Source of the DNA: a virus
Virus record (IMG/VR): IMGVR_UViG_3300045988_080644
DNA: 64,000 bases
Reading direction: 5' to 3' (one strand)
The number at the start of each line of letters is the position of its first letter. Position 1 is the first letter of the stretch. The notes beneath the pieces were generated by a model, which saw nothing but the letters and a program-made list of their open reading frames with translations, ran no database searches and was not told the DNA's origin. The position numbers and the translations under genes were made by a program. This document shows positions 36,673 to 64,000 of this stretch, in pieces.

Positions 36673-36858
36673 ATGCAGCCGGGAGATGTAGTTTAGTTAC
36701 GTTAGCGTGACAAAATGCATTGTCCGGCTATGCTTGTTATTAGAAAAGAGCAAGCAATATTTAAAGATGAAATGAAAGGATTAAGATGTAGATGGTTTAC
36801 TGATTCAGGTTTAATGTAGGAAGCAGTATTCAACACTAAGGATTTAATACTTGTATAA
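36673..36858 (+). CDS. DUF2158 (YodC)-like small protein, TAG-recoded
   Basis: 61 aa with 3 in-frame TAG. Reading TAG as Q gives MQPGDVVQLRQRDKMHCPAML...CRWF, which matches the GDVVQLKSGGP.M...C.WF signature. This is the first TAG-containing ORF of the late block. Confidence 0.6.
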
Positions 36859-36860
36859 TT

Positions 36861-38468
36861 ATGGCATGGAAAACAGTTAATGCAGCATAGTCAATGGATG
36901 CTCGAAGTCAAAATGCTTTTAGAAGATTTTCTAACATACTTATGTCCCATAGAAATGCTAATGGCAATATTTAGTATAATCCTCAGGATAAATCTTACCG
37001 ATTAGTAAATGATAATGGAATATTTTATTCTAATGGCAGATTCTTTTCTAGATCTGGAGCAAGGGGTAATTATGATATAAATACAGGAAATTTTTTAAAG
37101 AAAAAAGTAAATAAACCAGCTGCTCCTGTAAAATAGCAGTCTTCTGCTGGATCCAAAGATATAGTATCTTAGGTGACTAATCCTAACTATTTATATGGTT
37201 ATAAAGAGTAGGTAAATAAATAGAATAAAATTCCTACAAACTCTCCTGCTACTAACAAGCCAAGAACTGCATTAGCTCCAAAAGCTCCTGCATCTAATTC
37301 ATGGATTAATAAGGGTAGAGGAATATGGAATTATAATGGAGTATCTCAAGCAGATGTTGCAAATGCTTATAAGACAGGAGACTTTAGTAAAGTAGGAAGT
37401 TATTTATCACAACATAAAGATTTAGCTAGTTACTTAAATAATGTTTACAGTAAGAGAGGAGGTAACTAGTTTAATTAGTCTGCACAAACTCCTGCAGTTA
37501 ATACTATGACCTTATAGACATTAAACAATGTAGTACCAAAATCTCCAGTAAAGGAAGTTACTCCAACTGTAGAGTTACCTACTGCACCAACTCCTACTTA
37601 TAATAGAAGTTAGACTAGAGATTATATGCGTTCTATAGGTATGAATCCTTATGATTATTCAGGAAGTGAACGAAAAGCTTTAAGAACATATTTAAATAAT
37701 CCTGGGTCTATGGACTCTAAGTACCAGCCATTTATTAATTAGGTATAGAATTAGCGTACTTAGAAAATGGTAAATAGCATTGGAACTAATTAGTTATTAA
37801 AACCAGAAACTGATACAAATAAACTGAATAATTAGTTAGTTAATTTAAAATTTGAAAAGGGAGGACAAATGTATAAATACGCAGCAGGAGCACAAATGGT
37901 ACAACCACAATAGACTAATAGTCAAGATCCAATAGATTAGATAGCTTAGATAGCCGCGGAATCTCTATAGGGTGATGAAAATTCAAAACAATAGTTAATT
38001 TAGGTTTTAAGTAATAAAGAGATTGCACCTAAGTTATTACAAATAGTTGATGCCGGAGTTAAGAACTAGGACAAGAGAGCTGTGATTATAGCTTAGGCAA
38101 TAAAGGCTTTATAGTAGGGAAGTACTCGTAAAGCAAGGCTTGGTGCTAAGTTAGATTATATTAAATAGTCTATTGGGGAATGCCCTGAAGGTCAGGAAGT
38201 AGTATATTTTAAAAAGGGCGGAGAAATCTGTAAGATATGTGCAGGTAAAAAGATGCAAGATGGAGGAAAATCTGACCCTATTAAAAACTTTAAGAAAAAG
38301 AAGGATGTTGCAAAACAAACTTATTAGAGAAATCCTTATACTAGGGGTAAATCAGCTAAAGAAATTGCCGAAATGCAAAGAAGAAATCGACAAGAAGCTA
38401 GTGAGGGTAAAGGTGAGAATGATGCTAATGTTGCTCCATGGAACTATAAAAAGAAAAAGATGAAATAA
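36861..38468 (+). CDS. 535-aa Gln/Asn-rich protein with C-terminal CPEG..C..C knuckle, TAG-recoded
   Basis: Line-by-line hand translation shows a continuous frame from ATG 36861 to TAA 38466, with dozens of TAG and no TAA or TGA. Confidence 0.65.
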
Positions 38469-38495
38469 AATACTAATGTTTAATGTTAATGATTT

Positions 38496-39056
38496 ATGAA
38501 TGTATTTAATTATGATAGTGACCATCTTGTTCTAGAATTAAATGAGCCTGAGATTCTTTTAATCAGAGAATTTAAGGCTCTTCTAGATAGAGATAAAACA
38601 AAAACTAAGACTAGAGTAAATAAAGAACTTACTTACATTTATTTGGCTTTAGATTGGAAGTCTCCTTATTCTAATTATTTAGAATAGGAAAGACATGAAG
38701 AAGCCCTAGCTGATAGTGGTTTGACAGAAGCCTAGTTTAACGACCCTATATTTAGAGAAGCTTGTCGAAAATATAGGAAATTACAAGAATCAAATAAATC
38801 TGTGAAATTATTAGAAGCAGCTCGAAGGGCAGCAGATTAGTTTATAGATTATTTTGAAACTATTGTAGATTTAAATGAACGAGATATTAATGGTAAACCT
38901 ATTTTCTCTGCAGAAAAAGTAATGAAGGAGATGGCTTAGTTAAGTAATGTCCATGAGCAATTAATTACTTTAGAGAAAGAAGTTAAAGAGTCCGTATCAC
39001 AAGAGTCTACAACTAGAGGTGGAGTTAATACTGGATATGACCCAGGTGATTTTTAA
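38496..39056 (+). CDS. 186-aa protein directly upstream of terL (position compatible with a small terminase), TAG-recoded
   Basis: The track fragment 38496..38687 continues through 4 TAG codons to TAA at 39054. The function is inferred from position only. Confidence 0.55.
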
Positions 39057-39061
39057 TTGAT

Positions 39062-41422
39062 ATGCCTAGAAAGAAGAAAGTATTACCTGATGAAATCTAG
39101 TTAATTGTAGATGAAGTAAAAAAGAAATAGTAGGAAGAAGATACTAAAGAGGCTAAGAAATTAGTTGATGAATATAGAATTGAACGTTCTAATGATAAGA
39201 CATATTGGGATATTACTAAGGATATGAAAATAGAATGCTTCGATCCTACTTTATCTTATGAATTAACTGGTTATAGACCCATAGATGAAACTCATGGTTT
39301 AGATTTTGATCCTTCATGGTTTACTGAAGTTAGAGAAACATTTCTAAGAACTGGGAGATATTGTTCTTATTTACCTAGAAGTAAAAGATGGGATGCATTT
39401 TGGAAAGAACAATATACTAGATGTAAATACGGTATGACCTCACATGGATATACTATTACTGGAGATAACTATTTCTTCTTAAATTTTTATTAGTTACCAG
39501 TAGTAGATATGGATAAAGCATCAGGTGAAGGTACTAATGAAAGTTTTCCAGTATTCTTTGCTTCTCAATATATGTTCTTTCATTATTTACAGATGTGTAG
39601 AGTATTACATAAAAATGCTGCCTTAATGAAAGCGCGTTCAATTGGCTTTAGTGAGATAAATGCTTCTCTTGCAGCTAGACTATACACTACTATAAAAAGA
39701 AGTAGAACTATGATTACTTGTTTTAAAGATACTTATTTAAATGGTACCTTTAGTAAGTTAGACCATGCTCTCACATTCATTAATACAAATGCTGATGGAT
39801 TTTTTAAACCTAGATTAACAGATAAAGCCCTAGAAAAGAAATCAGGATATTAGGTTAAAATAGATGGTTAGTTCACAGACTTTGGATGGCGTTCTGTTGT
39901 AATAGGAATTAATGGAAGCAAGCCTTCTAATATTCGTGGTGATCGTGTTGATCTTCTTATTTATGATGAGGCTGGTTCGTGGCCTGATTTAACTACTGCC
40001 GTAGTGCAAGGACAAGAATTATGTGAAGTACAAGGTGTTCCTAGAGGTATTATGTTATTTGGTGGTACTGGAGGTGACTTTGGTCCCCCTCTTGAAGGAT
40101 TAAAAAAGATTTATTATAATCCTAAGGCTTTTAAAATTCTACCATTTAGGCATAAGTGGACACAAGATGGAACCACTATAGAGAGCGGATTCTTTCTTCC
40201 TTATTTTCTGCAGTCTTTGAATCCTGAATATATGGATTCTAGAGGAGTTTGTAATTAGACAGAGTATAAGAAATTATTACAAGAAGAAAGAAATAATCTG
40301 TTAGCTGTTCCTGAAGAGTATCTTAAAAAGTGTGCTGAGCGCTGCTGGAATGCAGAAGAAGCATTTACTCTCGAAGGTTAGAACAAGTTTAATAAAATGA
40401 AGATAGCAGATTAGTTAGCTAAAATACGTCTTCATAAAATTGGACCTAGACCACAAGTAGGAACTATTGATTATACTTATAAATCTAATAAACACTCTTT
40501 AGAAAATATAGATGGATTTAGATGGCTTCTTAATTCTGGTAAAGTTTAGATATTGGAACATCCAGTATGGTCTGATTTATATAAAGAACAGATTGAGAAG
40601 TAGAAGAGAGAAGCTGAGGAATAGGGGATTGATTTTGAAGCTCCTGTATACACAGAAATGAATGATTTATATGTAGCAGGTATTGATGGTATTGATATTG
40701 GTGCTGCTCAAACTTCTAAAGAAACTAGAGACCCTTCTGATTTTTGTATTGTAATTAAACGTAGAGCCTTTGGTCTTAATGAACCCCAATATGTAGCTAT
40801 GTATAAAGACAGACCTCAAAATATTAGAGAAGCTTATAAGATAGCTATGTGTATGTGTAGATATTATAATTGTAGAATTAATATAGAGGCTACCCGTGTA
40901 GGTATGATTACTTGGGCTAGAGAAAATAAATGTCTACAATACTTTATGAAAAGACCTAGAGCCACTTTGACTGATATTAAATATGGTACTACTAAATAGT
41001 ATGGTACTCCTGCAACTAAAACTATTATAGAACAACAAACAGACCTTATAGCTGATTATGTAGAAGACTATGGACATAATATCTGGTTTGAAGATATGCT
41101 AGAATAGTTAAATGGTTATAATGATGAGAATAAAACAAAATTTGATATTATAGCTGCTCTTGGAATGGTTGAACTTGCCGACTAGGAATTATCAGGAAGA
41201 CAACCTACAAAAGTTGACAAAGAAGTTGAAGAATTTTAGGACTACGGATATTATATAAATGACAAAGGTTATAGAGAATTTGGGGTTATTCCAAAGAAAC
41301 AATCAAATCAAATAGTAATTAAATAGGAGGAAAACAATGACCCATACCGAATTGAAACAAGTGATCCTAGATTATATGAGAACACAGTTTTAGATAGATT
41401 TTATAGGAGATATTCGTATTGA
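39062..41422 (+). CDS. terL: terminase large subunit, TAG-recoded
   Basis: Track fragments 39224.., 39509.., 40004.. and 40658.. all lie in one frame, and hand reading joins them into 786 aa. Motifs are Walker B-like RVDLLIYDEAGSW, GDNYFFLNFY(TAG)LP, CWNAEEAFTLEG and the nuclease-domain VAGIDGIDIGAAQ. The 3' end is either TGA 41420 or, if the TAG at about 41325 terminates, 32 codons earlier. Confidence 0.85.
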
Positions 41423-41639
41423 AGATTTGGATCCTATAGGATATAAAGTTTCTCTTAATCTAGACCATTCTGAGAACCCTTTTGTACTAATGGCAGATTT
41501 ACCTGATGCTAAATTTGTAGATTTTATAAAAGAGGAATTAAGAAGAAGTAAATTACATAGAGTAAAGTATTTTAAAGCAATTAAAATACAACCTCCAGAA
41601 TCTAAACTATGTTATGACAGACAAAGAGCTTATAGATAA
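41337..41639 (+). CDS. hypothetical 100-aa protein, one in-frame TAG
   Basis: The ATG is preceded by AGGAGGAAAACA, a rare strong Shine-Dalgarno in this window. It extends track ORF 41427..41639 upstream through one TAG. Confidence 0.5.
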
Positions 41640-43785
41640 GACTAACGAAACCATTTCTGAACTTGTATATGATAAAACTAAGTTATAGAAAGCTTATAAT
41701 TATTATAATGGAAAAAGAGACAAGGAATAGTTTCGTTATCTAGAAGAAAACTTTGGTATAGGAAGTCCTACTTCTGTTGAATTTACGCCTTTACTAAGAA
41801 AACATGTAGATGCTTTAGTTGGTGAATTTCTAGGAACTCCTATATTACCAAAAATATCCTGTAAAGATGCAGGAACTATCAGTAATATGGATAGAGAAAA
41901 ATAGCTATTGATATAGACACAAATAATAGGATTTTTAAAGACGCATTTAAATAATTCCTTACTTAAATTTGCTAATAACTAGGATATTACTGATAAATCT
42001 ATTAAATAGTAGTTAGATAAAATAATTGAAGAGCAAGATTAGCAATTTGTTTCTCAATATGAGATTGCTGCTTAGAATATTCTTCAATACATTATGTAGT
42101 CTGAAGAAATTGATTTTGTAACTAAACTTAGACAATTATTTATAGACTTATTAGTTACAGGTTATTGTTTTTACAGAGTAAAACCATCATTTAGTAAAAC
42201 TAATATTGAAATAGAGGTATTAAATCCTTTAAATACCTTTGTAGACAGAAATCCTGAATCTCCTTATGTTAAGAAATCTTATAGGTCAGTTGTGAGACAA
42301 TGGCTTTCTAAAAGTTAGATATTAGCTAAATATGGAAATGAACTGAGTAAAGAGGACTTACGTAATTTTAAATAGAACTGGACAGATGATGACACAGCTA
42401 GGTACAGAAGAGCCTATGGTCCGGTTGTAGATATAGATGAAGCTAGTGATGATGACGAAGAACAAGATTTACTTCCTGGTTATCCTGAAGATGATTCCCA
42501 TAGATATAATCTGATTCCGGTATATGAAGTAGAATGGATAGAAACTGATGATAAATTTATTATGTAGAGATATAATACAATTAGAATCGGTGATGAATAT
42601 TATATTCTTAGGGGAATTGATAAATAGGTAATTAGAAGTCATGATAATCCTAATTATTGTGGATTGTCGGTAAATGGTGTTTATTTTTTAAATAGAGCTC
42701 GTTAGCCTTATAGTTTAATCTTAAAATGTGCTCATTTGTAGGATCGTTATGATCTTTTACATTACTATAGAGATGCTATTGTAGCAAATAGCGGGGTTAA
42801 AGGTAGTATTATTGACATTTCTATGATTCCTAAAGTGTTAGGACCTGATTTTGGAGCTAGAGTAAAGAAATGGAGAGCTTATAAGAAACAAGGAGAAATG
42901 TTAATTGACTCTTCTCAAGAAGGAAGAATGGAAGATGGATAGGCTCCTTTAAATACTATATTTAATGGCTATGATGAATCTTTACCAGCTTAGGTAATAC
43001 AAGCAATTGATTTAGCTATACAATCTATTGAATCTACTGTGTCTTCTATTACAGGTGTATTTAGAGAAAGACTTAATGGCATTGAATAGAGAGATGCTGT
43101 AACTAATGTTAAATAGGGAGTAACTAATTCTTATACTGTAACTAAACCTATCTATTAGCAAATGGATTTAGTTGTAAGAGAAGTCTTACTTGATAGTCTT
43201 AACTAGGCTAAAATAGTTTATAAGAAAGGACTAACTGGCACTATTACTTTAGGGGATAAATATTAGAAAATATTTACAGCCCTTCCCGAATACTTTACAA
43301 TTACAGACTATGATATACATGTAATATCTAGTACTGAAATTATGTAGGATATGTAGACAATTAAATCTACATTACCTGATTTAATTAAGTCCGGATTAGT
43401 TAGTGCTGATATTATATTTGAAGCTCTTACTGCTAAGAGTTTGACTGAACTTAAATATACTGTTAAGAAAGCCATAGAAAAATAGAAAGCTGAAAATAAT
43501 TAGTTATAGCAACTGTAGTAGAAATTAGAGGAAACTAGTTAGTAGTTACAATAGACATAGCAAGAGTTATAGAAGGCTCAATAGAAAGCAGAATCTCTTA
43601 ATGAACAAAGAATGCAGCTTGATTAGCAGAAGATTCAATTAGAATATCAAGTTAATTGGTATAAAGCTCAAACAGATAGAACTTATAAAGATAGACAATT
43701 AGATATAGAGGATTAGAGAACTAAGGTTGAATTAGCTTAGTTAAATGATGGTAATCCTTATAATGACAAAATTAGACAATCGTAA
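41614..43785 (+). CDS. portal protein, TAG-recoded
   Basis: 723 codons verified line by line, with about 39 in-frame TAG and no TAA or TGA before TAA 43783. It lies next to terL. The N-terminal AYNYYNGKRDKE(TAG)F is recalled from crAss-type portals. The C-terminus becomes a Q-rich coiled coil if TAG is Gln. Confidence 0.7.
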
Positions 43786-44675
43786 TGGCAATCAGTTGTG
43801 AAAAAGTATACTCTGGAACTGGTGATTAGATTTATCCGGAGACAGCAGATAGAGCAGTTACAGTTTTAGCTAAACATACTACACTTGACCTTTATTTAGC
43901 GGATCTTGCTAAATAGATTTCAGAAAATTAGGGAGCTGATGAAGTAGCCAAATCTTTAAAGTTTAAAGTGGATTATTTGGCTACAAATACAGCCGATGTT
44001 AATAAAGTGAAGGAGTTAGAAAATTAGGATGAAACTAATTAGTGGGGAGAAAACTTTGTATTACCTTCTGTGAAAACTCCTTATACCTGGAAAAGAACTA
44101 TTGTATATTTTGAAGGTTAGGATCTTAAAAATGGTTAGAAATTTTATGAAATCGTAACTGCAGATATTGCTGAGATTAGTTAGACTCTGTATATGGTTAA
44201 AGATAATTCTTAGTAGCCTAGGATAATATATCCACAGAAAGCCGTAGAAGTGGGAGGAGACATATAGAATGTAGATGATACGGATGCTTCTATAGATGAA
44301 ATAATCAAAGCTAGTGAAGAAGGTAAAAATAATTGGAGTAAATACCCATCGGAAATAACTGCATCTAATCCATATGGATTTATGGCAGTACGATAGAGAG
44401 TAAGTGGTGCTTGGAGCTTATTTAAAATTGCTCTATATTCTAAATGGGCTTATGACAGTAGACTTGTTACTAAATTTACAGTAACTAATACTTTTGAAAA
44501 ACCTCAATTAATTAAAACTGCAGTAGATCCAGGTGACTAGTGGACAGATACTAATGAATAGGAATTTACTGGTTATCTATGGATGATTTCCGCCTCCTAG
44601 AACAATAATAATTATGTTTTAGATGATGATAAGAATATATGGAGTGAACCTCAATTAATTTCAATAGTTAAGTAA
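43785..44675 (+). CDS. structural protein (296 aa), TAG-recoded
   Basis: Continuous frame verified, with TAATG start/stop overlaps at both ends. Repeated YTWKR / YLWMISA...IWSEPQLIS motifs resemble virion minor structural proteins. Confidence 0.6.
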
Positions 44676-45454
44676 TGGAATTTAAAATAGATATATGTAA
44701 TTCGGTACAGGGTGATTTAACTGTATTAGATTTATCTAAAGAGTATGACCAATATTTATCTGAAGAGGAAGAGGTGGCTAGTACTTATGAAGATACATTA
44801 TTATTTAAATACAGTAAGTCGGTGACTGTAAATGTATTAATGAAAATAGGAACTACAGAAATAACATTCTTAGATGCATTAATACATGAACACAATTAGT
44901 TAGAAAATGGAGTATATAAAGATGATGCATGTACTTTCAACCTTAAAGAAGATGGTTTTTATACTATTGACCATTATGTATTTCCGAATATAGATTGGTA
45001 TAATTGGTATAAAAATAAAGCTTCACAAGAATATAAAGATAAAATAAATAGGGTATATATAATAGATGAAGGAGCTATTAAAAAAGAAGTAGATGGAGTA
45101 TTAAAAGAAACTACTCTTAGGGAAGTACTGGAAATGAATTTAGAAGGAACTCCTATTTAGTAGGAACACATAAATACTTTCTTTACAGGAAATATGCAAC
45201 AATGTTATATTAATTATTGTAAGAAATTATTTAATGCATTATTAAATAAATGTCGAACTTCTGCGTATAATGAAGATTTATATGCCAGAGACTTCATTTG
45301 GATGACTCTTAATATAATAGATTATTTAATCTAGTTTGAACAATTTATGGAAGCCGAAAAAATAGTAGAAGAATTTAATACTTGTGGAGGTTTCTGTTAG
45401 AATAATGAATATGGATAGCATACAGCTCATGGATGTGGATGTTCTAAAGCGTAA
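44675..45454 (+). CDS. structural-module protein (259 aa) with Cys-rich C-terminus, TAG-recoded
   Basis: Track fragment 44675..44899 extended through 6 TAG codons to TAA 45452. Confidence 0.6.
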
Positions 45455-45659
45455 AGCAATAGAACTTTATAGAGATTTATTAAATAGAGCAAAGAAAGGT
45501 TATCAAGATGATTATTCATTATTGTTAAATATTATTTGTTTTATTAGTTTACCTATAGATATAGATAATAAAGAATTTATTAAAGAGAACTTACTAAATT
45601 AGAATGATACACTCTATTTACAATTAGGTAGGGAAGGTAGGTTTAACACCATGTTCTAA
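45405..45659 (+). CDS. small protein (84 aa), one in-frame TAG
   Basis: Track ORF 45384..45602 trimmed to the ATG at 45405 and read through one TAG to TAA 45657. It overlaps both neighbours. Confidence 0.4.
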
Positions 45660-46926
45660 AGAAAGACCTAAACAACTTATACCTCTTTTAAAGAGTAATT
45701 TTTTAGGAGAGTTTCAAACAGAACTAGAAAAGAAATTAGCTAGAGAAAGTATAGGTGTAACAGTTACAGGTAAATATACATATCAACCTGACAGTGACCA
45801 TATAACAAACATAGAATAGATTACATCTATCTATGAAGCACTTGATTATGCTTTAACTCTAGCTAAATCTTATCAAGATAAAAAGATAGAAAAATAGATA
45901 GAAACTATTAAAGCTAATATAAATTAGTTAACTAGCACTGTTACTAATTAGGGGGAGGAGTTATCTAATTTATAGGAATTAGTTAATACTATTAATACAT
46001 AGGTAGGGGCCTTAAATAGTCAACTAGCTAATTTAAATGTAGATGATAAAATAGAAGCATGGATTAGAACACATTCGGGTTCAGTAGCTTTAAATGGGGA
46101 ATCTAAATTAGATTTTGCTATATCTCAAGCTGAAGGTAATGCTATTAAATCTAATGCAGATGGTCTCTATGTTGAAAGCTCTTCTGCAGCTGTATATAAA
46201 TCAGAATTATAGGATAATATTAAAATGAATATTTCTGTGGGAGGACTCAAATAGGGAACTAAAGTATCTGACTTAAAAGGTAAAGCATTCTCTACCATAT
46301 TAGATAAACTATTATTCCCGGTATTAGTTAGAGAATTAGTTCAACCTTATGTGGTATCTAATGTATCTAGTTAGCTAGTAGAAGTGGGTAGCCCTATCAT
46401 TCCTGCAAGTACAACTTTTATTAAAGGGGATGCTGGAGAAATAACTTCTAAAACAGATTCTATAACTCACAATGATTAGGCTTACACAGAATCCACATAT
46501 ACAGAGTTGGGAGATTATATTTATAAAGTAGTAATTGATTATTCTGCCGGAGAATATTTAATTGATGATAGAGGATAGACTACTGATAAAAGAATTGAAG
46601 CAGGTTCTATAAATAAAACAGTGGCTACTATTTCTGCAACATATCCCTGGTATTATAATACTCATAAAGGCACTTTAGTTAAGTATGGTACTCAATCTAA
46701 TATAATGGAAATTAATTTATCGGGTAAAGCCGTTATTAAAATACCGGGCGCTAATTCAACTTTAGATAGCTTAAAAGTAAATGGTGGTTTAGGATTCTTA
46801 GAGATTGATATGTCTGGATGGACTAAATCTATTGAACAGATAAACGATTATACATATTAGGTATGGACTAAGAATGATTCTTATGCTTCTGAACTACCTC
46901 ATCAAATTCAATTCACATTAGCATGA
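45604..46926 (+). CDS. tail-fibre-like protein (440 aa), TAG-recoded
   Basis: Frame verified from ATG 45604 to TGA 46924. The N-terminal CSKERPKQLIPLLKSNFLGEFQTELEKKLARESIGV is shared with the 55784 gene. Confidence 0.6.
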
Positions 46927-48038: not shown

Positions 48039-48095
48039 TAATATTCTTATATTGTTGTCTTTTCCTATTATTTATTAAACTAAAACTTATTTATT

Positions 48096-48704
48096 ATGTC
48101 AACAATTTGGAAAAATGGAAAATATTAGCCTTTAATTAGGTATGTCACTAATAAAGATTTTAAACTATTATCTAACCTTGTAAATATTATAAATGGGGAT
48201 TCCAATACTAAAGGTTCCTTTAGAAAAACTATAAAAGACTTAATTGGAGGAGCCCCTGAAGCTTATGATACATTGAAGGAGATTGCAGATAAACTCAAGA
48301 ATAATGATAATTTATACACAGCTATTAGTAATACTATTGCTACTAAGGCTACTACAGTTGCTCTTAATGAAGAAATCACAAGGGCTAAGGCAGCAGAAGC
48401 GTCTATTACATCAGATGTTAATGCTAAGCTTTCAAAAAAGGCTAACTCTACTGCCCTTAATGATTATGTTCTTACAACAGTACTTAATGAGCAGGTTAAC
48501 ACACTAAATGCTGCTATTGATGCAAAGTAGCCTAAAGGTAATTATCTTACAGAGCACCAGTCTCTCGAAGAGTATGCCAAGAAGAGTGAGATTGCTGAAT
48601 AGATTGCTGCTAAGGCTGACGTTACAGCTCTCACAGCACTTGAAGCACGTATTGCAGCACTTGAAGCCAAGCATACTGAAACTAATACTTAGATAGAAGC
48701 TTAA
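48096..48704 (+). CDS. tail-fibre-like coiled-coil protein (202 aa)
   Basis: It contains GGAPEAYDTLKEIADKL, the widespread phage tail-fibre motif aPeaLDTLkELA, followed by heptad-like ALN/ALE repeats. It has only 4 TAG and is locally GC-richer. Confidence 0.6.
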
Positions 48705-48725
48705 TAAAATTATATTAGATGTTAA

Positions 48726-54900: not shown

Positions 54901-55327
54901 GTTAGCAAGAATTATGTATTATAGAGGTTATAGTGCTAAAGGTACTAACTTTATTGATAGTACGTCTGTTTCGGAAACTATTACTAAACAAAGTTCCGGT
55001 ACTGAGGCTAAGAATAAAGCAATATTCTCTAATGCTAAATCAGTTATGGGAACTAACTTCCCTTCTGTGTGGTCTAACATAGCTAATAATTAGAATACAA
55101 CTACTACTATAAATAATTCCTCTAATTACAATAGTTATTCCTATTAGAATATGTGTACAGATTATAGTTGTACCGCACATAGATATGAGTGGATTCCAGG
55201 TAGAACCTTTAGCAATAATGCATATGATGCTAATATGTAGTAGTATATAGCGGCTTGGAGGGTGACTAAACATTAGGGAGTTCCATTTACACAATTTACT
55301 TATAATAAAAGCACTTAGAATGATTGA
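48953..55327 (+). CDS. giant 2,124-aa virion/host-interaction protein with leucine-rich repeats, TAG-recoded
   Basis: All 107 sequence lines were read in frame: about 65 in-frame TAG and zero TAA or TGA from ATG 48953 to TGA 55325. Four track fragments share this frame. LRR block LTLNNMTTLETLNLTDFNKLKEINLSG...LELYNPVKELRLEGISNLKTVDLSN lies at about 53.34-53.76 kb. Weaker resemblances are CotH-like at about 50.9-52.9 kb and DUF1566-like GNWYIPSAK(TAG)LARI at about 54.2-55.3 kb. Confidence 0.75.
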
Positions 55328-55787
55328 TAAGAATTTATCTTTAAATAATATGTTAGAGAGGGGAGACCTATTGGCTCTTCCTCTCTCTAAATGGAAAGAA
55401 TTATTAATAGAAAAAGATGGAGCTTGTTTTGACTTTTAGTTAAAGGATATTTTACAAGCTAAATTAACATCTTATGATAAATCTATTGATGTAAATTCTT
55501 TCTATTATAAAGAAGATAAGAAGTGGTTGAATAAAGATACTAGAATTGGATTATAGAATTTAATTAATTGTGGGGCTTAGACTGTAACTATTTAGTTAGG
55601 TTCTGAATTATTAGATATTTCTGCTGACAAATTAAAAGAATTCTTAAATAAGTTAGAAGTTTATGCGGGGGAATGCTTCTCTACAACAGCTAAACATAGA
55701 ATAGCTATTAACTAGTTAAAATCTACAGAAGAATTACTTAATTATGATTTTACAGCAAATTATCCTAAGAAAATAAGATTACAATGA
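55320..55787 (+). CDS. 155-aa protein (possible DUF4376-like fibre accessory), TAG-recoded
   Basis: Frame verified, with 5 TAG. It overlaps the giant ORF by 8 nt and the next gene by ATGA. Confidence 0.5.
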
Positions 55788-56227
55788 ATGATATAAAGAT
55801 TGGACTGGGAGATAATTCCTCCTGGTCCATTTTTGTTCCACCACAACCTGAAAAACCCCCTTCTATTCCTATTGAAATTCCAGATAAAGTGGAATTTAAA
55901 AAGACAACTATAGATAGTGGATTTAGTTGTGATGATAAATTAACTACAAATTGTCCTAAACCATAGTTACATACTCATCTTTGTAAAGAAAATTATTTAG
56001 GAGAATTTAAAGAAGAATCTGAGAAAGCATTAGCTAGGGATAATTTAGGAGTTTATAGTAAAGATGAGATAAGTAAAGTTTTAGAAGATGCAGTTGCAAA
56101 TCTAGACACATCTATTTTTATTACTAAAAAAGAAGTATATAATTTAGTTGAGAATTTAGATTTTGTTAACTCTACTATTAAAGCAAACATAGATTATGAA
56201 ATTCCTGAACAATTATTTAGTTTATGA
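55784..56227 (+). CDS. fibre-module protein (147 aa), one in-frame TAG
   Basis: Track fragment extended. It contains CKENYLGEFKEESEKALARDNLGV, paralogous to the N-terminus of the 45604 gene. Confidence 0.55.
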
Positions 56228-56805
56228 CAGAAATTAGAAGACTATTTCAACAAGGTAAAGAATTTGTTCCTATTTCTTTAGCAGAAGCAGTTGTAGTTAA
56301 TACTAATAATCTTCCAGGATTTAGTTCCTTAAAGATAACGACACTTGATCGAGTCTTATACAGCTTAACAGGGGTAGTTGGTACTAATTCTATAAATATT
56401 AAAAATTTATAGGATACTAAATAGGATAAATTAACAGCTGGTAACGGTATAGTTATTAAAGATGGAGTAATTAGTACAACTGCTAATATCGGAGACATTT
56501 ATAAAATTGTTTCAGTATTACCACATGCATCTGCAGAATTAACTAATACTCTATATTTAGTTCCAACTACTTCAGATAGTACTGAAGATGGAACAAATAT
56601 ATTTGTAGAATGGCTATGTGTTAAAGTAGGGGAAACTTATAAGTGGGAAAAATTAGGAGAGTCTAAAACCACTATTGATTTATCAGATTACATAACTAGT
56701 ATTCCAGTAACTAATAGTAGTGGCACTATAATTAAGGTTAACTACGAAATTCCTAAAGATTTATATGATAACTTAATGGATGGAAGTAATGTCACAACAA
56801 ATTGA
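56224..56805 (+). CDS. fibre-module protein (193 aa), 2 in-frame TAG
   Basis: Frame verified to TGA 56803, with an ATGA overlap upstream. Confidence 0.55.
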
Positions 56806-57133
56806 GCAACTTAAACACGGTACAACTCTTATATTTCCAAGAACTTCACAAGAAGCGGTATTAGTTATTTATAAAAATAAGGTATAGACTTTAGGAGACT
56901 ATATAAATAGAACTGTAATAACTCCAAATGAAAGTCCTTAGAATATAAAAATTTAGTATAATAAATAGGGAGAAATAATTAATACGAAACCTGTTGAAAA
57001 ATTAAATATATTTATAAATGGAAAGCAATATATTGGATATGATGGGAATACAGAAGATAATCTAAATTTTGGAGATGATTTCATTAGCGAAAATAATAAT
57101 ATTAAATTAACTTGGGGAAATGGCATTACTTAA
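56789..57133 (+). CDS. fibre-module protein (114 aa), 4 in-frame TAG
   Basis: Frame verified from ATG 56789 to TAA 57131. Its N-terminus, like that of 56224, has ..FP.TS.EAVLV. Confidence 0.5.
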
Positions 57134-58715
57134 TTTTGCATCAAATTATCAAGACGTAGTTAAATATAAAAATTTAACAGCAAATTCTCCTAGCCTTAGT
57201 GGCTCTAATGAGAATGATTATGTTAAATTAGTATTTACAAAAGATGGACATATTATTACACATGGTGTTGACTATATTCCATCAGTATGGGATATTAGTA
57301 AACTACCGGTTGATAGTACAAAAATAGATAACAAACATTTGTGGGATTCAGCAACTATTAACTAGAAAATTAATGATAGTTATGTGATTAACTCTGCAAT
57401 GCGATTTAAGGGTACTATTGGATTAAATCCTACTTATAATGGTACCTCAGATACAAAGAAATACTTAGTTAATGATGTAAAATCAGATATACCTGCAGCA
57501 TAGGTAGGTGATACTTATAGGGTTACTTCAAAGGGTAATTATGAAGGATTTACTTGTGAAGCAGGTGACTTATTAATGTGTATTACTGCTAGTGGTACTA
57601 ATAAAGCTGCAGGATGGACGGTAGCGTAGACAAACATCAATGGTACTGTTGACTTTGTAATTAACGGTAGGGTACATAAAATATATTCTAATGATACCTC
57701 TGGTTTGACTATGTTCGCCCCAGTAAGTGCGGGCACTCTTGGAAATATTTTGGTTTCAGGTGGAACAGGTAGTGCGCCTACTTGGGCAAATCCTGCTAAT
57801 TTAACTGTAGGAACAGCTAATAAAGTATCTAATTCTTTATCTAATGGGGCAGGTATTGTAACATTTTCTTACGACGGTTCAAGCGCTAAAAAAATCGCCC
57901 TTGCTCCAGCGACTGCTACCACTATTGGCGGTGTTATTGTAGATGCAGCAGGAGATAAAGCTACTATATCAGTCGATTCAAATGGTAAAATATCTTTAAC
58001 TGCAACTAACGTTAGAAATGCATTAGGATATGATCCAGTAGGAGTAAATAATTGGCGTCCAGTATATGTGGATGGAGAGGTATTTCAAGGAAGTGCTACT
58101 AATACAGGAAATCTTAGTATTAAACATGGTTTAGGTATTATTATAACTAAAGATTCTCAAACTCATGACATTACCTTTAGTACCAATACTAATTATGTAA
58201 CTAATGACAAGAATTATAAAGTAGAAGCAGATCCTTCTACAGGAGGTTTATATGTAAATGTGCCATGGTCTAATACCACTTATGGAGTAGTAAGTGGCAC
58301 TTCAAACGGTCTAGCACCTAGGGTAGTTAATACTAATACAACATTAATTAATAATGCTTTCTATTTACTAGCTTCTTCGAATGGCACTAATACTCCTAGT
58401 TGGTACAAATTACCTGCCACTGCATTTGCTAATACCTGGAGGGATATAAAGATAAAGGGAACTAGTATCGGTAGTAATGCTTTAAATTTACTCGAAGGCA
58501 GCCACATAACTTTATCTAATTCTAATGGTACTGTTACAATCAGTTCTGCTTGGAGAGATATTTAGATAGGTCAAAATTCTATAGGTACACGAGCATTAAA
58601 GATAGATGCTTCAAGTGATATTTATGTATCTGAATCAAAAACAGATACAGTAGAAACAATAAGCTTTGGAATTTCTTGGTATAATTTAGATACAGATGAA
58701 TATGAACATGTTTAA
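57120..58715 (+). CDS. tail fibre protein (531 aa)
   Basis: Track fragments 57120.. and 57705.. share a frame and were joined by hand. It has 4 TAG in total, and the 286-codon stretch 57705-58562 has none. GTLGNILVSGGTGSAPTWANPANL is a typical fibre motif. Confidence 0.65.
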
Positions 58716-58721: not shown

Positions 58722-61700
58722 ATGAAAATATCATTTAACCCCTCGAATTCTAATAAGAACATTCTTGATCTTATTAAAAATAATAAAGATATAATATTCG
58801 ACCTCAAGGGGCATAGTATATTTGCACGAGGGGTTGAATTTAAAGGCACAGATACTAATACATGGAGACCAGTAGTGGATAACTTAACTAGTGATTCCAC
58901 TACTAGTTCTCTTTCTGCTAAACAAGGTAAAGTTTTAAAAGCTTTAATTGATGGCAAGTCTAATTCAGATCATAATCACGATGGTAGATATGTTAGATAT
59001 TATGCCGTTACTACATTAGATTGTAATAATTTAGCGGCAGGTTTAACTTCTGCAAGAATATCTGCTACTAATGCAGCTCATACTAATCATAGTGCTTATT
59101 TATATATTTCTGATGTAGGAACTCCATTTCAAATACAAATACCTGATTCTAGTATACCTTATATTTATAAAAGATATTATGGTTCAGGTAAGTGGAGTGG
59201 GTGGTTTAAATTAAATGCTGGATATGCAGATTCAGCAGGCTCTGTAGCTTGGGCTAATGTAACAGGGAAGCCTTCATCATATACACCATCAGCACATACT
59301 CATGCTTGGAACTCTCTTACTCATTCTAGTACTACTGAGAATCAAGCTATCTTAACTAATGGAAAGGCTAATGGCTGGAAGCTATAGACATTAAATATAG
59401 CTAGATGGGATAATGCAGCTAATAATGCACATTCTCATGCTAATAAATCAGTACTCGATGGTATTACTTCCGCCTTAGTTAATAGTTGGAATACAGCTTA
59501 TAACTTTGTTAGTAACATAACTGGAACTGATACTGATAAGGTTATTAATAAATGGGAAGAAATAGTTAATTTCTTAGCAGGTATTACAGAGGATAATAAA
59601 TTAAATACTTTATTAAATAGTAAGCTATCTGTATATGAATTAGCTGATAACACTAATGTAGGAACTATTAAAAATAATGGTATTTATTATAGTACTACAG
59701 ATGCTTCTTCTAGAACTTTAATTAATTCTCCTTTTAATACTGGATTTGCCTTCATAAACATGACTTCCTATGATGGAGGTGATGATTTGAGAAGATCTCG
59801 TTTAGCATTTAATGCCTTTGGAGAAATTAAGGTATCAGATGATAGAGACTAGGCTAATACAGCAGAAACTTGGTATAATGTATTAACATCTAAGAACTCA
59901 GGTATAAATGGTTCTACTATTAAATTAAATGGAACTAGTATTACTGTATATAGTAGTGGTACTGCTGATGGTAGATATGTAAAGAAGTCAGGAGACACTA
60001 TGTCGGGTGTTTTAACTATTGACACTACAAATTTTGGAGCATTAACTATAAAAAGAAACGATGATGCTAATGGTGCTTCTATTCAATTTAGAGGTAAATC
60101 AAGTGTATATGGATATATAGGATTAAATAATAGCACTAAGGATAAATAGTTTTTGAGATGGAGTTCTGATATTTCTAGAATTTATACTATTCTTGATACT
60201 TCATCTACTTATATATCTAATGGTAAAGGAGTTATTAATGGAACTACTATAACTCAAGTAGACAATGCAACAAACTCTACAAATTCCACAAATGCAAGAA
60301 AATTAGTTAATTGGTATTCTGCTAGACCAACTTCACTTAATGCACAATTTGGTGACGGTAGTTTAAGAATATTTTATGCTACTTCATCTACTACTGAAGG
60401 AAAACCAGCTGAAGATTCTCATATATTACACTTAGCTTGGGACAATACTGGTGGATATGATGCTCAATTAGCTGTACACATACGTTCAGGTAAAGTTAGC
60501 ACTCGTGCTCAAAATGATGGTACTTGGCAACCTTGGAAAACTTTAGCTTTTACTACAGACATTCCGTCATCTTTAAAGAATCCATACTCATTTAATGTAT
60601 TTGGAGTGGTATATGATGGTTCTGCTGCTAAAACAGTTACTACTTCTACTTTTATCAGTTAGGTTAATGAAGGTACGTCTACCATAACAGATGGTACTAT
60701 GCTTATTACTTCATATGCATCTAATAGTGGATTTGCAGATACTAATGCTGTCAATGTCCCATATAAGAGAAGGGCTATTCATTTATGGGAATATATAAAA
60801 ACAAAGACTGATTCTCTTTATGCAACAAAGGGGCATAATCATGATGGAAAATATTTAAAATTAACAGGTGGCACAATGTTAGGTGCTCTTAATTTTGCAA
60901 ATAATACTTGGAATTTAGTAGGAGACGACTCTTACATAGGAGATTGTAATATATCTGGACATTTTGGAATTAAAGCTGCTAATACTACATATCCAGGAAT
61001 AACCTTTTTTAATAATGCAAGTACTTTTTTAGGAAATTTAACTGCCTATAGTGGCAATATTAAATATGGAGCATATAGTCTCCAATTTCTTGATAATGGA
61101 AATACTAGTGTAAGTGCTAGTACTTGGACTAATCCGTTTAGTAATTACAATAGTAATGCTGTAGCAGATGGGCAAGCCATTTGTGTTTGGGGACAGAGCT
61201 CTTATTTAAGCAATTTATCAACAGATACTGGAGATATGTCTTTATGGTTAAAAAGAATTAATGCTAATGCGGCTACATTAAATATGGTGTTAAATGGTGA
61301 GTACTATGCTAATGGAAATTAGAGATTAGCTCATGTGTCTGAAATACCTAATAAAGACAGTTGGAACTATGACGATAGATACCTAAGACTAACAGGTGGT
61401 CGGATGTCGGGTGATATTAATTTTGGAGGCGATAATAAAATACACTGGGGACGTAATACTGATTCTGCATCTATTTCATTTAAAAATGATGGAGATGGGG
61501 ATGCTAATTCTTATATGAGTTTTGTTACTTCTGATAATGGTAATGAATACTTTAGATGGAGTCATAGCTCTGGTTCCACTAATACAGAATGGATGGCGTT
61601 AAGAAGCGATGGTCTTAGAGTAAGAGGAACTAAAGTTAGCTTAGAAGGGCACTCTCATAATGACCTTTATTATACTAAAGCTGAGTCTAATGCGAAATAT

Positions 61701-64000
61701 ATAACTGATATAGCTACTTCTGTAAATAAATTAACATTTACTAGAAACGGATCTAATATTGCTAGGAATATTACAGTAAATGTAGTATATAGTTAGGGAA
61801 ATTTAACTGATATTTCTAATAAAGATAATACTACTAAAGCTAGTTCAGGATTATATATATATAATAGTTATAATTAGGTCATAGGAACTAATTCTTATAG
61901 TTCAGTATTATCAATAAATACTGGAGGAACTATTCAAATAGCTGGAAATTGGGGGGACGATTAGACTAGAAATCTTTATTGGAGAAGTTAGTCAGATAGA
62001 AATGTTGCTGATTATCCATGGAAATCTTGGAGAACTATTTTAGATAGTGAGAATTACTCATCTACCTTAGATTCTCGTTATTATACAGAATCAGAAGTAA
62101 ATAGTCTTCTTGATGCTAAATTAAATAGACAAAATCTGTCATATGGTAATTGGAATCCTAGAGGTTGGAATTTAGCAGCTGATTATCATTATAATGGAGG
62201 AGATTTATCTATTTCTGAGAATAATGGTAAAATGTATATTTCAGTAGATGGTTGTTTTTGGTAGAATGAAGGTCAATATAGAGTGTTAGATACTTCTGAT
62301 ATTGGTGATATACAAGGTAGGGTAACATTATCCCAATATTTATCAGCTACAGATGCTACTTGGTATCCTCTAGTGTGGGGAGGAAATGCTCACAAAAATA
62401 CTAGTGATTCTACTGGAGCTGTTTGTAAATCTTATGATAAATTATCTTGGTAGACTAGTAGTTAGACATTATATGCTACCAACATTCAAACAAATAATAT
62501 TAAAAACTTATCTATAGGAGGAGGCATTTATTGGAATCCTTATGCAGAATCGGCTTCAGATGGTAGTGATGCAGCTTCTATTACATTAGTTAGATCTGGT
62601 GTAGCAGGAGGAACTACTTTAGTACTTAGTTAGATGAATGATACTAACGATACTATATAGTTTAAAACTAATACTGCCGCTAGATTGTATCATAATAGTT
62701 ATCCAATATTAACTACTTAGAATACTTATGTAAGTAATAATAAGGGTTATATAAATGGTACTGAGATTACTTAGGTAAATAATTCTGATAAAGTAGATAA
62801 TAGACATGCTATATCTACTACCCCGAATACTGGTATAATTTATAAAGCAGCTATTTACACTAGTTCTTCATTAACATCATACTGGGTAAGACTAGCTAGT
62901 ATTCCTAGTATTAGTTAGAATGGCGAATTTGTTGCCACAATTCATGTATAGTCAGGACATTCTAATCCTGGAAGAAGTGCTATTTTATTAGTATATCTCA
63001 GAGGTAATGCATCGTCATTTATGTCAAAAAGCTTTAAGATATGTTGTAACTCTAATTATGATCCTAACAGATTTAGATTATATTATAAAGACAGTGATAA
63101 AACTTCAGAAATATGGTACCAAACTACTGGTTAGTGGGATGGAATTATTACAACAGTGATAAGTTAGAGTGCAGAAGGATGGCTATATGAGGGACTTACT
63201 CTATATAGTGGAAGTATCACTGCAGTACAAACTCCATCCGTGAGCACATACTTATCTGCTTAGGTTAGCACTATCACAGATAATATATCAGGAAATGCGT
63301 CTACTGCAACTAAACTTCAAACTCCTAGAACTATTTGGGGTCAAAGTTTTGATGGAACTGGTAATGTAAGTGGTTCTTTATCAGAAGTTGGTAATATACA
63401 TTTTAAGGTAGATAATAGTTATGACATAGGCTCTGATGCTGCTGCTAGTAGATATATTTACACTCATTGGTTAGGGGCTAGGTCTGGACGAAAATTAGAA
63501 TTAGGAGCAAATAATAGTGGATTTGGACAGGGATTATGTATAGATACTAATTTAAATGTAGGTATTGGAACTAATAGCCCTACACAAAAATTAGATGTGA
63601 TAGGAAATATTAGAGCAACAGGACAATTATATTTACCTACTAATGGTAATTATAATGCTATCCTTATGGGTGATGACTGTTGGATGGGAGATTGCAATAT
63701 AAATAATGTTATTGGTTTAAGTGGTACAGGTAATGCTAATTCGGGAGGCATTAAATTTGGTAAAGGTGGTATGTATATAGGTTATAATGGTTCTAGCCAT
63801 TATTCTAGTGGTACCTCTCTATGGTCTAATTTTAATGCTGATTTATTAGATGGTTATCATGAAAATTCTTTCTTACGTTATAGGGGAGCTACATACACAG
63901 ATTAGGAAGCCACTTTATGGAGTTAGATAGGAATTAAATAGTATAATAATGCTCTCCCAGACAACTTAACTGGTGTTTATAATTACGGAAGTGTAATAAG
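58722..64000 (+). CDS. giant tail fibre protein, partial (>=1,759 codons, continues past window end)
   Basis: Track fragments 58722.., 60153.., 60699.., 61335.. and 63597.. all lie in frame 0, and the gaps were read by hand with only TAG interruptions. Module junctions recur: DHNHDGRYV, GRYVKKSGDTMSGVL, GHNHDGKYLKLTGGTMLGAL, DDRYLRLTGGRMSGDI, GHSHNDLYY. It also contains IWGQSFDGTGNVSGSL. Confidence 0.7.

What the first reader, a model, noticed from the sequence alone, without database searches (positions are those of the whole stretch)
36673..64000. TAG is a sense codon throughout the late/structural module
Seen directly: from 36,673 onward the standard-code track shows only fragments, but reading through TAG gives long uninterrupted frames. 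These are terL (786 aa), portal (723 codons, about 39 TAG by my count), a 2,124-codon ORF (about 65 TAG) and a >=1,759-codon ORF. I checked these frames line by line and none contains an internal TAA or TGA, which is not expected by chance in AT-rich DNA. Genes end at TAA or TGA, often in TAATG/ATGA overlaps. Gln is the best fit for three reasons. GDVV(TAG)L in the DUF2158-like protein matches the family's GDVVQLK. The portal C-terminus becomes a Q-rich coiled coil. TAG-to-Gln (code-15-like) recoding is the reassignment already reported for crAss-like and other gut phages. The phenomenon itself is therefore known, but any standard-code annotation of this region will be wrong.
Basis: partly seen in the sequence, partly recalled or inferred. 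Interest (0 to 1): 0.7.

Follow-up and report, generated by a model that had tools for sequence, protein, structure and literature searches.

The report
Gut phage late genes read TAG as glutamine
This very common ~180-kb human-gut crAss-like phage reads the stop codon TAG as glutamine in its packaging, virion and cell-wall genes, using its own suppressor tRNA followed by a small self-cleaving ribozyme; this is real but already documented for this phage group.

Summary
From 36,649 to 64,000 on the + strand, 18 contiguous genes (8,965 codons) hold 244 in-frame TAG and no internal TAA or TGA. Coding density rises from 0.30 (code 11) to 0.98 when TAG is read as sense.

TAG = Gln is supported. Across 26 standard-code relatives, Q fills 34% of cells at 80 TAG sites, against a 3.5% background. 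True Gln codons give 29%. In near-identical strains, TAG exchanges with CAG/CAA.

- An amber-suppressor tRNA(CUA) lies at 31,717-31,788.
- A minimal HDV-like "theta" ribozyme (31,789-31,844) abuts its 3' end. It is present in only 5 of 15 strains.
- Two more recoded genes sit outside the stated range, on the other strand: 17,065-18,126 (YkuD domain, 19 TAG) and 33,114-33,836 (17 TAG).
- TAG is still a stop in 8 of 59 non-recoded ORFs.

None of this is new in kind. Partial TAG-to-Gln recoding of late genes is published for crAss-like, including Zeta-group, phages, with proteomic proof in two crAss-like phages. Public gene calls already translate this phage's TerL with Q at every TAG. Verdict: correct and ordinary for this group; low novelty.

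The parts
31717..31788 (+). Amber-suppressor tRNA, anticodon CUA, with U1-A72, discriminator A73 and no encoded CCA. It sits among TAG-free genes on the same strand, about 4.9 kb upstream of the recoded block.
   Evidence: ARAGORN; Rfam tRNA 63.3 bits; alignment with relatives; present in 14 of 15 strain-level loci.
31789..31844 (+). Minimal HDV-like ('theta') ribozyme whose G1 follows tRNA position 73 directly. P1 31789-95/31819-25; P2 31799-805/31838-44; P3 31806-08/31816-18; L3 TCCACGT; P1.1 CC/GG; tiny P4; J4/2 CTAA with the putative catalytic C at 31834.
   Evidence: Sub-threshold Rfam hits to CPEB3 (23.8 bits, E 3e-4) and HDV-F-prausnitzii (23.6 bits, E 0.018). Same core in 123 IMG/VR sites with covarying P1 and P2. 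50 of 87 unique copies abut a tRNA 3' end.
36649..36858 (+). First recoded gene, 69 aa, 3 TAG, weak DUF2158 similarity.
36861..38468 (+). Recoded gene, 535 aa, 28 TAG, function unknown.
38496..39056 (+). Recoded gene, 186 aa, 4 TAG (phrog_16390, function unknown; sits where a small terminase subunit would).
39062..41422 (+). Terminase large subunit, 786 aa, 17 TAG.
   Evidence: phrog_6681 E 1e-64. Identical to public P0001 with Q at all 17 TAG.
41614..43785 (+). Portal protein, 723 aa, 39 TAG.
   Evidence: phrog_6547 E 1.6e-36; per-site table.
43785..48947 (+). Six recoded virion-module genes: 296, 259, 440, 371, 202 (tail-fibre-like) and 73 aa, with 15, 6, 13, 8, 4 and 2 TAG.
48953..55327 (+). 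Giant recoded ORF, 2,124 aa, 65 TAG (phrog_24896, function unknown).
55320..58715 (+). Five recoded genes of 155, 147, 193, 117 and 531 aa, with 5, 1, 2, 4 and 4 TAG.
58722..64000 (+). Recoded ORF of at least 1,759 aa that runs off the window, 24 TAG (phrog_20472, function unknown).
17065..18126 (-). Isolated recoded gene inside the TAG-free leftward arm: 353 aa, 19 TAG, YkuD L,D-transpeptidase domain. Probably a cell-wall-active late or lysis-related protein.
   Evidence: Pfam PF03734 at 26 bits, above the 23.4 cut-off. Full-length 353-aa homologues at 99% identity on ~180-kb contigs.
33114..33836 (-). Isolated recoded gene, 240 aa, 17 TAG, function unknown.
   Evidence: Homologue in standard-code relatives. 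Called as 240 aa in public assemblies.
29214..29723 (-). Example of a gene where TAG is a true stop (169 aa). Strain L318 has TAA at the same codon, and the downstream sequence diverges.

Best explanation
The window comes from a very common human-gut phage of about 180 kb, distantly crAss-like and most likely Zeta-group. It uses two readings of TAG within one genome.

Shown:
- About 57 small genes use the standard code: the whole leftward arm and the first 6.5 kb of the rightward arm. TAG is absent inside them and serves as the stop for 8 of them.
- Twenty genes carry 280 in-frame TAG codons that stand for glutamine. These are the packaging/virion block from 36,649 onward plus two isolated minus-strand genes. 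In these genes TAG is the commonest Gln codon, at 33-83% of Gln-type codons per gene (44-83% in all but one small gene).
- The phage encodes an amber-suppressor tRNA(CUA) at 31,717-31,788, in the TAG-free leader of the rightward arm.
- A minimal HDV-like theta-type ribozyme motif starts at the base after tRNA position 73.

Inferred:
- The ribozyme cuts the primary transcript to make the tRNA 3' end, which then receives CCA.
- Host GlnRS charges the tRNA. A CUA anticodon with U1-A72 favours Gln charging in known systems.
- TAG-containing mRNAs can be translated to full length only once the suppressor has accumulated. Recoding would therefore act as a translational timer or lock on virion and cell-wall genes.
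- An ORF with 65 TAG needs roughly 99% or better read-through per codon. RF1 must therefore be outcompeted or disabled by a factor not visible in this window.
For: ORF restoration and absence of TAA/TGA.

Gln assignment:
- At 80 TAG sites aligned to 26 relatives that I verified as standard-code, Q fills 34% of cells against a 3.5% background. True CAR Gln codons align with Q in 29% of cells.
- Q is the plurality residue at 28 sites and is near-invariant at many, for example TerL 451 and portal 154, 162, 376, 551, 636 and 709.
- The site-weighted log-likelihood puts Q 37 nats ahead of the next residue, K.
- In strains at least 90% identical, 16 of 22 changes at TAG sites are to CAG/CAA, and 11 of 12 reverse changes come from CAG/CAA.

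Other support:
- tRNA(CUA). Relatives carry a second tRNA family in which near-identical genes have CTG or TTG (Gln), CTA or TTA anticodons.
- Ribozyme.
- TAG as stop: 8 of 59 non-recoded ORFs, with a TAG/TAA swap between strains.
- TerL and portal identity; YkuD gene.
Against: - No direct evidence on translation, charging or timing is available for this phage.
- The tRNA's discriminator is A73, not the G73 of E. coli tRNA-Gln.
- An anticodon-free scan for its D and T arms in bacterial genomes returned mostly Patescibacteria tRNA-His (103 of 110 hits). Arm similarity therefore does not establish Gln identity. Only the acceptor end (no G-1:C73, U1-A72/A73 as in the four CTG/TTG hits) and the codon evidence do.
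- The ribozyme is absent from 9 of 15 near-identical strains, so it cannot be essential for the switch.
- No release factor, GlnRS or CCA-adding enzyme was seen in the window, although about two thirds of the genome lies outside it.
- The label 'early' for the TAG-free arm rests on orientation and codon use only. Most of its ORFs have no family match.
Confidence: 0.9

Rival explanations
1. TAG is a sense codon but stands for an amino acid other than Gln, such as Trp, Tyr, Ile, Lys, Glu or His. About 30% of theta-associated suppressor tRNAs get non-Gln isotype predictions in the literature.
For: The tRNA's D and T arms match Patescibacteria tRNA-His more often than any tRNA-Gln in an anticodon-free genome scan. 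Its discriminator is A73. Kienbeck et al. report Trp, Ile and Tyr isotype predictions for some suppressor tRNAs (PMC10879173).
Against: Site-weighted log-likelihoods are Q -197, K -234, E -237, H -295, Y -341 and W -442. Many TAG sites are invariant Q in 24-26 standard-code relatives. TAG exchanges almost only with CAG/CAA in close strains. The tRNA lacks the G-1:C73 that defines tRNA-His.
Confidence: 0.04
2. The whole phage, or its host, uses code 15 throughout, so there is no dual use or switch. TAG is simply rare in the other genes.
For: Most non-recoded genes merely lack TAG. 51 of 59 end in TAA or TGA.
Against: Eight ORFs in the TAG-free region end at TAG. In seven of them the next in-frame TAA/TGA follows within 1-18 codons. 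In the eighth, the GNAT gene, it is 103 codons away. In one, a sister strain has TAA at the same codon and unrelated sequence downstream. The GNAT domain gene ends at a TAG. TAG goes from 0 of 8 Gln-type codons in gene 36057-36662 to 3 of 5 in the next gene. Published recoded-phage hosts use the standard code (10.1101/2021.08.26.457843).
Confidence: 0.04
3. The TAG-interrupted frames are decayed or untranslated sequence, or a sequencing or assembly artefact.
For: Standard-code translation gives only fragments.
Against: There are no TAA or TGA in 8,965 codons where about 577 are expected. The same genes with the same TAGs occur on hundreds of independent assemblies; TerL alone is on 695 contigs. 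Protein-level conservation extends to standard-code relatives.
Confidence: 0.01

Closest known systems
Partial TAG-to-Gln ('code 15') recoding of late genes in crAss-like phages, especially the Zeta group (Yutin et al. 2021, PMC7886860; Borges et al. preprint 10.1101/2021.08.26.457843; Peters et al. 2022, PMC9523058)
   Same: In-frame TAG is confined to packaging, virion and lysis-type genes, and a phage suppressor tRNA(CUA) is present. Genomes are about 175-190 kb. Close relatives switch between TAG recoding, TGA recoding and the standard code: 38, about 18 and 26 of 82 fetched loci (80 IMG/VR plus two GenBank). HNH and intron-type insertions are frequent.
   Different: Nothing essential differs. 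Here TAG is the majority Gln codon in most recoded genes, and two recoded genes sit alone on the opposite strand. Scattered recoded modules are described for other clades in the Borges preprint.
Theta ribozymes, minimal HDV-like ribozymes 3' of phage tRNAs (Kienbeck et al. 2024, PMC10879173)
   Same: G1 directly follows tRNA position 73. The fold has P1, P1.1, P2 and P3 with a tiny P4 and a C at the start of J4/2. No CCA is encoded. The partner is an amber suppressor in a code-15 gut phage.
   Different: Activity was not tested. Within this one phage species the ribozyme is a clean 61-nt presence/absence polymorphism, present in 5 of 15 strains. That argues it is dispensable or recently inserted.
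supE-type amber suppression in E. coli (tRNA-Gln CUG to CUA), from established knowledge
   Same: The suppressor reads UAG as Gln. In relatives, a second tRNA family shows the same CTG/TTG to CTA anticodon change.
   Different: Here suppression must be near-complete, with up to 65 TAG per ORF, and it is a designed part of the gene programme rather than a leaky mutation.

Membership tests
Code-15-type partial recoding of phage late genes | In-frame TAG in conserved phage genes; reading TAG as sense restores long ORFs and coding density | tested here: met
   Density rises from 0.30 to 0.98. 244 TAG and no TAA/TGA in 8,965 codons.
Code-15-type partial recoding of phage late genes | TAG positions correspond to Gln in homologues that use the standard code | tested here: met
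   Q fills 34% of cells against a 3.5% background, and Q is the best-fitting residue by 37 nats. TAG exchanges with CAG/CAA in close strains.
Code-15-type partial recoding of phage late genes | Phage-encoded suppressor tRNA with anticodon CUA | tested here: met
   31717-31788, conserved in strains.
Code-15-type partial recoding of phage late genes | Recoding limited to late, structural or lysis genes, while other genes stay compatible with the standard code | tested here: met
   TerL, portal and tail-fibre-like genes and a YkuD gene are recoded. 59 other ORFs have no internal TAG and 8 end in TAG. Expression timing itself was not tested.
Code-15-type partial recoding of phage late genes | Peptides with Gln at TAG positions | not testable with these tools
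   Shown for two other crAss-like phages (PMC9523058).
Zeta-group crAss-like phages | TerL groups with crAss-like TerL, on the deep Zeta branch | tested here: inconclusive
   Apart from two unannotated 'Bacteriophage sp.' fecal contigs (42-47%), the best matches in the phage collection are crAss-like TerLs at only 25-29% identity. No phylogeny with named Zeta genomes was made.
Zeta-group crAss-like phages | Genome of 145-192 kb from human gut | tested here: met
   Contigs carrying the identical TerL are mostly 175-190 kb and come from human gut metagenomes.
Zeta-group crAss-like phages | TAG-recoded, TGA-recoded and standard-code lineages intermixed at short distances | tested here: met
   38 TAG, about 18 TGA and 26 standard-code loci among TerL relatives.
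Zeta-group crAss-like phages | crAss signature genes (MCP, IHF, giant RNAP-like proteins) | not tested
   PHROGs and Pfam gave no named hit for the candidate capsid gene or the giant ORFs.
Theta (minimal HDV-like) ribozyme | Nested double-pseudoknot with P1 (7 bp, G1), P2, P3, P1.1 and a very short P4 | tested here: met
   All helices can be drawn in 31789-31844. In 87 unique IMG/VR copies sharing the core, P1 is 7/7 in 81 (62 distinct strands). P2 is at least 6 bp in 76, against 8.6 when partners are permuted.
Theta (minimal HDV-like) ribozyme | Cytosine at the first position of J4/2 (catalytic C) | tested here: met
   C at 31834 in CTAA. The core pattern I used required it, so this is not independent for the relatives.
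Theta (minimal HDV-like) ribozyme | Cleavage site within about 1-5 nt of a tRNA 3' end | tested here: met
   G1 at 31789 follows A73 at 31788. 50 of 87 related copies abut tRNAs, mostly Met, Leu and Sup.
Theta (minimal HDV-like) ribozyme | Self-scission | not testable with these tools
   Rfam HDV-type models match only below their gathering scores (23.6-23.8 bits against 35-44).
tRNA-Gln identity of the suppressor | Weak 1-72 pair (U1-A72), U35, and an acceptor end like cellular tRNA-Gln | tested here: inconclusive
   U1-A72 and U35 are present. A73 differs from E. coli G73 but equals the CTG/TTG tRNAs of Prevotella-binned contigs. D and T arms also match tRNA-His. Charging was not tested.

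The most novel reading that the evidence does not exclude
The suppressor-tRNA locus, not the recoded genes, may be where the code switch is tuned or parasitised. Within one phage species the same tRNA(CUA) gene occurs in three forms. It is bare in 9 strains. It carries a theta ribozyme fused to its 3' end in 5 strains. In one strain (L316) it is split between U35 and A36 of the anticodon by a ~1-kb insertion encoding an HNH endonuclease, with group-I-like U|...G| boundaries. If these forms differ in how fast mature suppressor appears, RNA self-processing would set the timing of late-gene translation and lysis, and strains would differ in it.
Probability: 0.15. Interest if true: 0.55.

Novelty: already known. 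Interest (0 to 1): 0.27.

Why it matters
For annotation, any code-11 gene call on this region gives fragments. The right calls need TAG = Gln for 20 specific genes, while TAG stays a stop for the rest, so a single whole-contig code is also slightly wrong.

For biology, this is one more clear and very abundant example of a phage that uses a stop codon as a translational lock on virion and cell-wall genes. The suppressor tRNA and its ribozyme are mapped to the base. It does not open a new question. The only mildly new material is the strain-level variation at the tRNA locus.

Tried and rejected
- Reading TGA or TAA as sense gave no comparable gain in the late block.
- 7982-8899(-) looked recoded (8 TAG), but it is a GNAT gene that ends at a TAG, followed by other frames.
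- I did not tabulate residues from the 150 TerL representatives. Some may themselves be code-15 translations, which would be circular. I used only DNA loci that I had classified as standard-code.
- The anticodon-free scan of bacterial genomes for the tRNA's D and T arms returned mainly Patescibacteria tRNA-His, so arm similarity was dropped as evidence for Gln identity.
- The YkuD protein has no match in the phage genome collection.
- PHROGs gave only function-unknown families for the two giant ORFs, and PHROGs/Pfam gave no meaningful hit for the candidate capsid gene. Ten more leftward-arm ORFs had no Pfam hit.
- Rfam found no group I intron model in the L316 insertion.
- An exact-pattern scan for the odd long-arm tRNA(CCA) found only two distant copies, both with Thr anticodons.
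- No release factor, GlnRS or CCA-adding enzyme was seen among the window proteins scanned.
Full report
**Observation**

The window is 31% GC. GC skew is negative up to about 30 kb and positive from there on, which matches leftward genes in 1-30 kb and rightward genes from 30.2 kb.

Under the standard code, the + strand from 36.6 kb gives only fragments. Reading TAG as sense gives 18 contiguous genes from 36649 to the window end.

Together the 18 genes hold 8,965 codons, 244 in-frame TAG and no internal TAA or TGA. Local base composition predicts 6.4% TAA/TGA per codon, so the 2,124-codon frame alone has log10 P of about -61.

Greedy coding density for 36673-64000 is 0.30 under code 11 and 0.98 with TAG as sense. 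Reading TGA as sense does nothing. Every late gene ends in TAA or TGA, several in TAATG or ATGA overlaps.

**What the genes are**

- PHROGs identifies 39062-41422 as large terminase (E 1e-64) and 41614-43785 as portal (E 1.6e-36). 48096-48704 has tail-fibre-type matches.
- The two giant ORFs hit only PHROG families of unknown function.
- Apart from two unannotated 'Bacteriophage sp.' fecal contigs (42-47% identity), TerL's best matches in the phage collection are crAss-like phages at 25-29% identity.
- The exact TerL protein, with Q at all 17 TAG positions, is already in NCBI, ENA and Logan protein sets (P0001). It occurs on 695 contigs, mostly 175-190 kb.
- Public gene calls on ten such contigs give the same gene lengths as mine, so code 15 has already been applied to this phage.

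**Which amino acid TAG encodes**

I fetched 80 loci around TerL relatives from IMG/VR, which together with the two GenBank loci gave 82, and classified each by ORF length under the alternative codes. The result was 38 TAG-recoded, 26 standard-code and about 18 TGA-recoded loci.

Against the 26 standard-code loci only, 80 of the window's TAG sites are aligned (1,727 cells).
- Q fills 34% of cells, against a Q background of 3.5%. The window's ordinary CAA/CAG glutamines align with Q in 29%.
- Q is the plurality residue at 28 sites. E, N, K and R, the usual replacements of Q, come next.
- A site-weighted likelihood built from the same alignments' substitution frequencies puts Q 37 nats ahead of K and about 100 ahead of H.
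- Many sites are Q in all 24-26 relatives, for example TerL 451 and portal 154, 162, 376, 551, 636 and 709.

At the codon level:
- In strains at least 90% identical, 16 of 22 changes at TAG sites are to CAG/CAA, and 11 of 12 reverse changes come from CAG/CAA.
- At 60-90% identity, 239 of 534 non-TAG partners are CAA/CAG.
- Counting TAG as Gln brings Gln content of most late proteins from 1-3.5% up to roughly 3-9%, though a few stay at 1.5-3%. TAG supplies 33-83% of Gln-type codons per gene, and 44-83% in all but one 147-aa gene.

The TAG in GDVV(TAG)L aligns with Thr in all 25 standard-code relatives, and the DUF2158 hit is below Pfam's cut-off.

**Extent of recoding**

The boundary is sharp. 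Gene 36057-36662 has 0 TAG among 8 Gln-type codons, and the next gene (36649-36858) has 3 of 5.

- 17065-18126 is 353 aa with 19 TAG and a YkuD L,D-transpeptidase domain above Pfam's threshold. Full-length 99%-identical homologues occur on ~180-kb contigs.
- 33114-33836 is 240 aa with 17 TAG. It is conserved in standard-code relatives and called as 240 aa in public assemblies.

A cell-wall enzyme that is recoded while embedded in a TAG-free arm fits the published bias of recoding towards lysis-related genes (10.1101/2021.08.26.457843).

Elsewhere TAG is a stop.
- Of 59 non-overlapping ORFs on the coding strand of 1-36.6 kb, 42 end in TAA, 9 in TGA and 8 in TAG. In seven of the eight, a further TAA/TGA follows 1-18 codons later.
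- For 29214-29723, a sister strain has TAA at the same codon and unrelated sequence after it.
- 7982-8899(-), which looked recoded, is a GNAT gene that ends at a TAG.

**Machinery**

ARAGORN and Rfam find a tRNA with anticodon CUA at 31717-31788 (+). It lies between TAG-free genes, 4.9 kb upstream of the recoded block. It has U1-A72, A73 and no encoded CCA.

Relatives at 72-75% TerL identity carry this tRNA plus a second family on the other strand. In that second family, near-identical genes have CTA in most, CTG in L025, TTG in L150, and TTA in L006, L133 and L138. That family is plainly tRNA-Gln-derived.

For the window's own tRNA, identity is less clear.
- An anticodon-free scan of 185,579 genomes for its D and T arms returned 103 Patescibacteria tRNA-His, 4 tRNA-Gln (CTG/TTG) and 3 phage CTA copies.
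- The His tRNAs have G-1:C73, which the phage tRNA lacks. The four Gln tRNAs share its U1-A72/A73 acceptor end.
- The Gln assignment therefore rests on the codon evidence, not on tRNA resemblance.

**Ribozyme**

The base after A73 (31789) starts a 56-nt element. It matches HDV-type Rfam models below threshold: CPEB3 at 23.8 bits (E 3e-4) and HDV-F-prausnitzii at 23.6 bits (E 0.018).

It folds as a minimal HDV-like ribozyme:
- P1 GAATAGC/GCTATTC
- P2 AGTAGAA/TTCTACT
- P3 ACC/GGT with L3 TCCACGT
- P1.1 CC/GG
- a tiny P4
- J4/2 CTAA

A scan of IMG/VR with the core pattern gave 123 sites, and 120 of them have a P1 partner. In 87 unique copies:
- P1 has 62 distinct sequences and is 7/7 paired in 81.
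- P2 was not used for selection. It forms at least 6 perfect pairs in 76 copies, against 8.6 when partners are permuted.
- Fifty abut a tRNA 3' end, mostly Met, Leu and Sup(CTA).

This matches the published theta ribozymes, which sit at the 3' end of phage tRNAs. By that report, 85% of suppressor tRNAs in theta-ribozyme-bearing phages carry one, and 96% of those phages are code 15 (PMC10879173).

Within this species the ribozyme is optional. It is present in the window, L004, L319, L320 and L322. In nine other strains it is absent as a clean 61-nt indel.

In strain L316 the tRNA gene is split between U35 and A36 by about 1 kb carrying an HNH ORF. The boundaries are U|...G| as in group I introns, but Rfam gives no support.

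**Mechanism**

Shown:
- dual use of TAG
- the Gln assignment by comparative evidence
- the tRNA
- the ribozyme motif at its 3' end

Inferred:
- ribozyme cleavage, CCA addition and charging by host GlnRS
- delayed translation of TAG-containing mRNAs until the suppressor accumulates
- the need to neutralise RF1, because 0.95^65 is about 4% and 0.99^65 is about 52% full-length product for the largest ORF

No release factor, GlnRS or CCA-adding enzyme was found among the window proteins scanned. About 120 kb of the genome is outside the window.

**Comparison and novelty**

Partial TAG-to-Gln recoding of late genes is described for crAss-like phages, and specifically for the 145-192-kb Zeta group, including code switching among close relatives (PMC7886860). 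The timing and lysis model is in 10.1101/2021.08.26.457843. Peptide proof exists for two crAss-like phages (PMC9523058). The tRNA-ribozyme pairing is in PMC10879173.

The finding is therefore correct and already known. The only modestly new material is the strain-level variation at the suppressor-tRNA locus.

Noticed in passing
window 25666-25750 (-) and 26644-26749 (-): Two RAGATH-1 hammerhead ribozymes above Rfam gathering score (81.3 and 69.7 bits). They sit in a low-coding stretch and flank a 111-aa ORF (26276-26611).
   Followed up: no
window 20958-21048 (-): A 91-nt tRNA with a long variable arm and a Ser/Leu-type D arm, but anticodon CCA (Trp codon). An exact-pattern scan of IMG/VR found only two distant copies, both long-arm tRNAs with TGT (Thr) anticodons.
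   Followed up: partly
window 16228-16300 (-): A tRNA-like gene (Rfam tRNA 52.4 bits) with a 6-nt anticodon loop, CGTAGA, on a 5-bp stem. ARAGORN cannot assign an anticodon.
   Followed up: no
window 20395-20466 (-): A tRNA-His(GTG) found by Rfam only and missed by ARAGORN. It lies within the tRNA cluster at 20162-21125.
   Followed up: no
L316 1753-2841 (ENA ERZ28637130 scaffold_2), same species as the window: The suppressor tRNA(CUA) gene is split between U35 and A36 by about 1 kb that encodes a 272-aa HNH protein. The boundaries are U|...G| as in group I introns, and the exons rejoin to the intact tRNA sequence. Rfam finds no group I model.
   Followed up: partly
window 31789-31849 compared with L003, L016, L017, L317, L318, L321, L323-L325: The theta ribozyme is a clean 61-nt presence/absence polymorphism among strains with 97-100% identical TerL. 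It is present in 5 of 15.
   Followed up: yes
L006 707-777 (-), L133 5191-5261 (+), L138 677-747 (-): In relatives at 72-75% TerL identity, the second, Gln-derived tRNA carries a TTA (ochre-type) anticodon instead of CTA. L025 has CTG and L150 has TTG at the same locus.
   Followed up: partly
L003-L082 (TerL relatives in IMG/VR): One TerL family contains TAG-recoded (38), standard-code (26) and apparently TGA-recoded (about 18) genomes. L082 has a tRNA(TCA).
   Followed up: partly
window 57-683 (-) and 792-1394 (-): Two adjacent TerD-domain proteins (E 5e-23 and 1e-58) at the left end of the window.
   Followed up: no
window 35157-35783 (+): An HNH_3 + AP2 homing-endonuclease-type gene, TAG-free, sits just upstream of the recoded block. 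Its length varies or it is absent among strains.
   Followed up: no
L001 20470-24281: In the recoded relative MT835539, TerL is split into three separate frames, which suggests intron or intein insertions as reported for Zeta-group phages.
   Followed up: no
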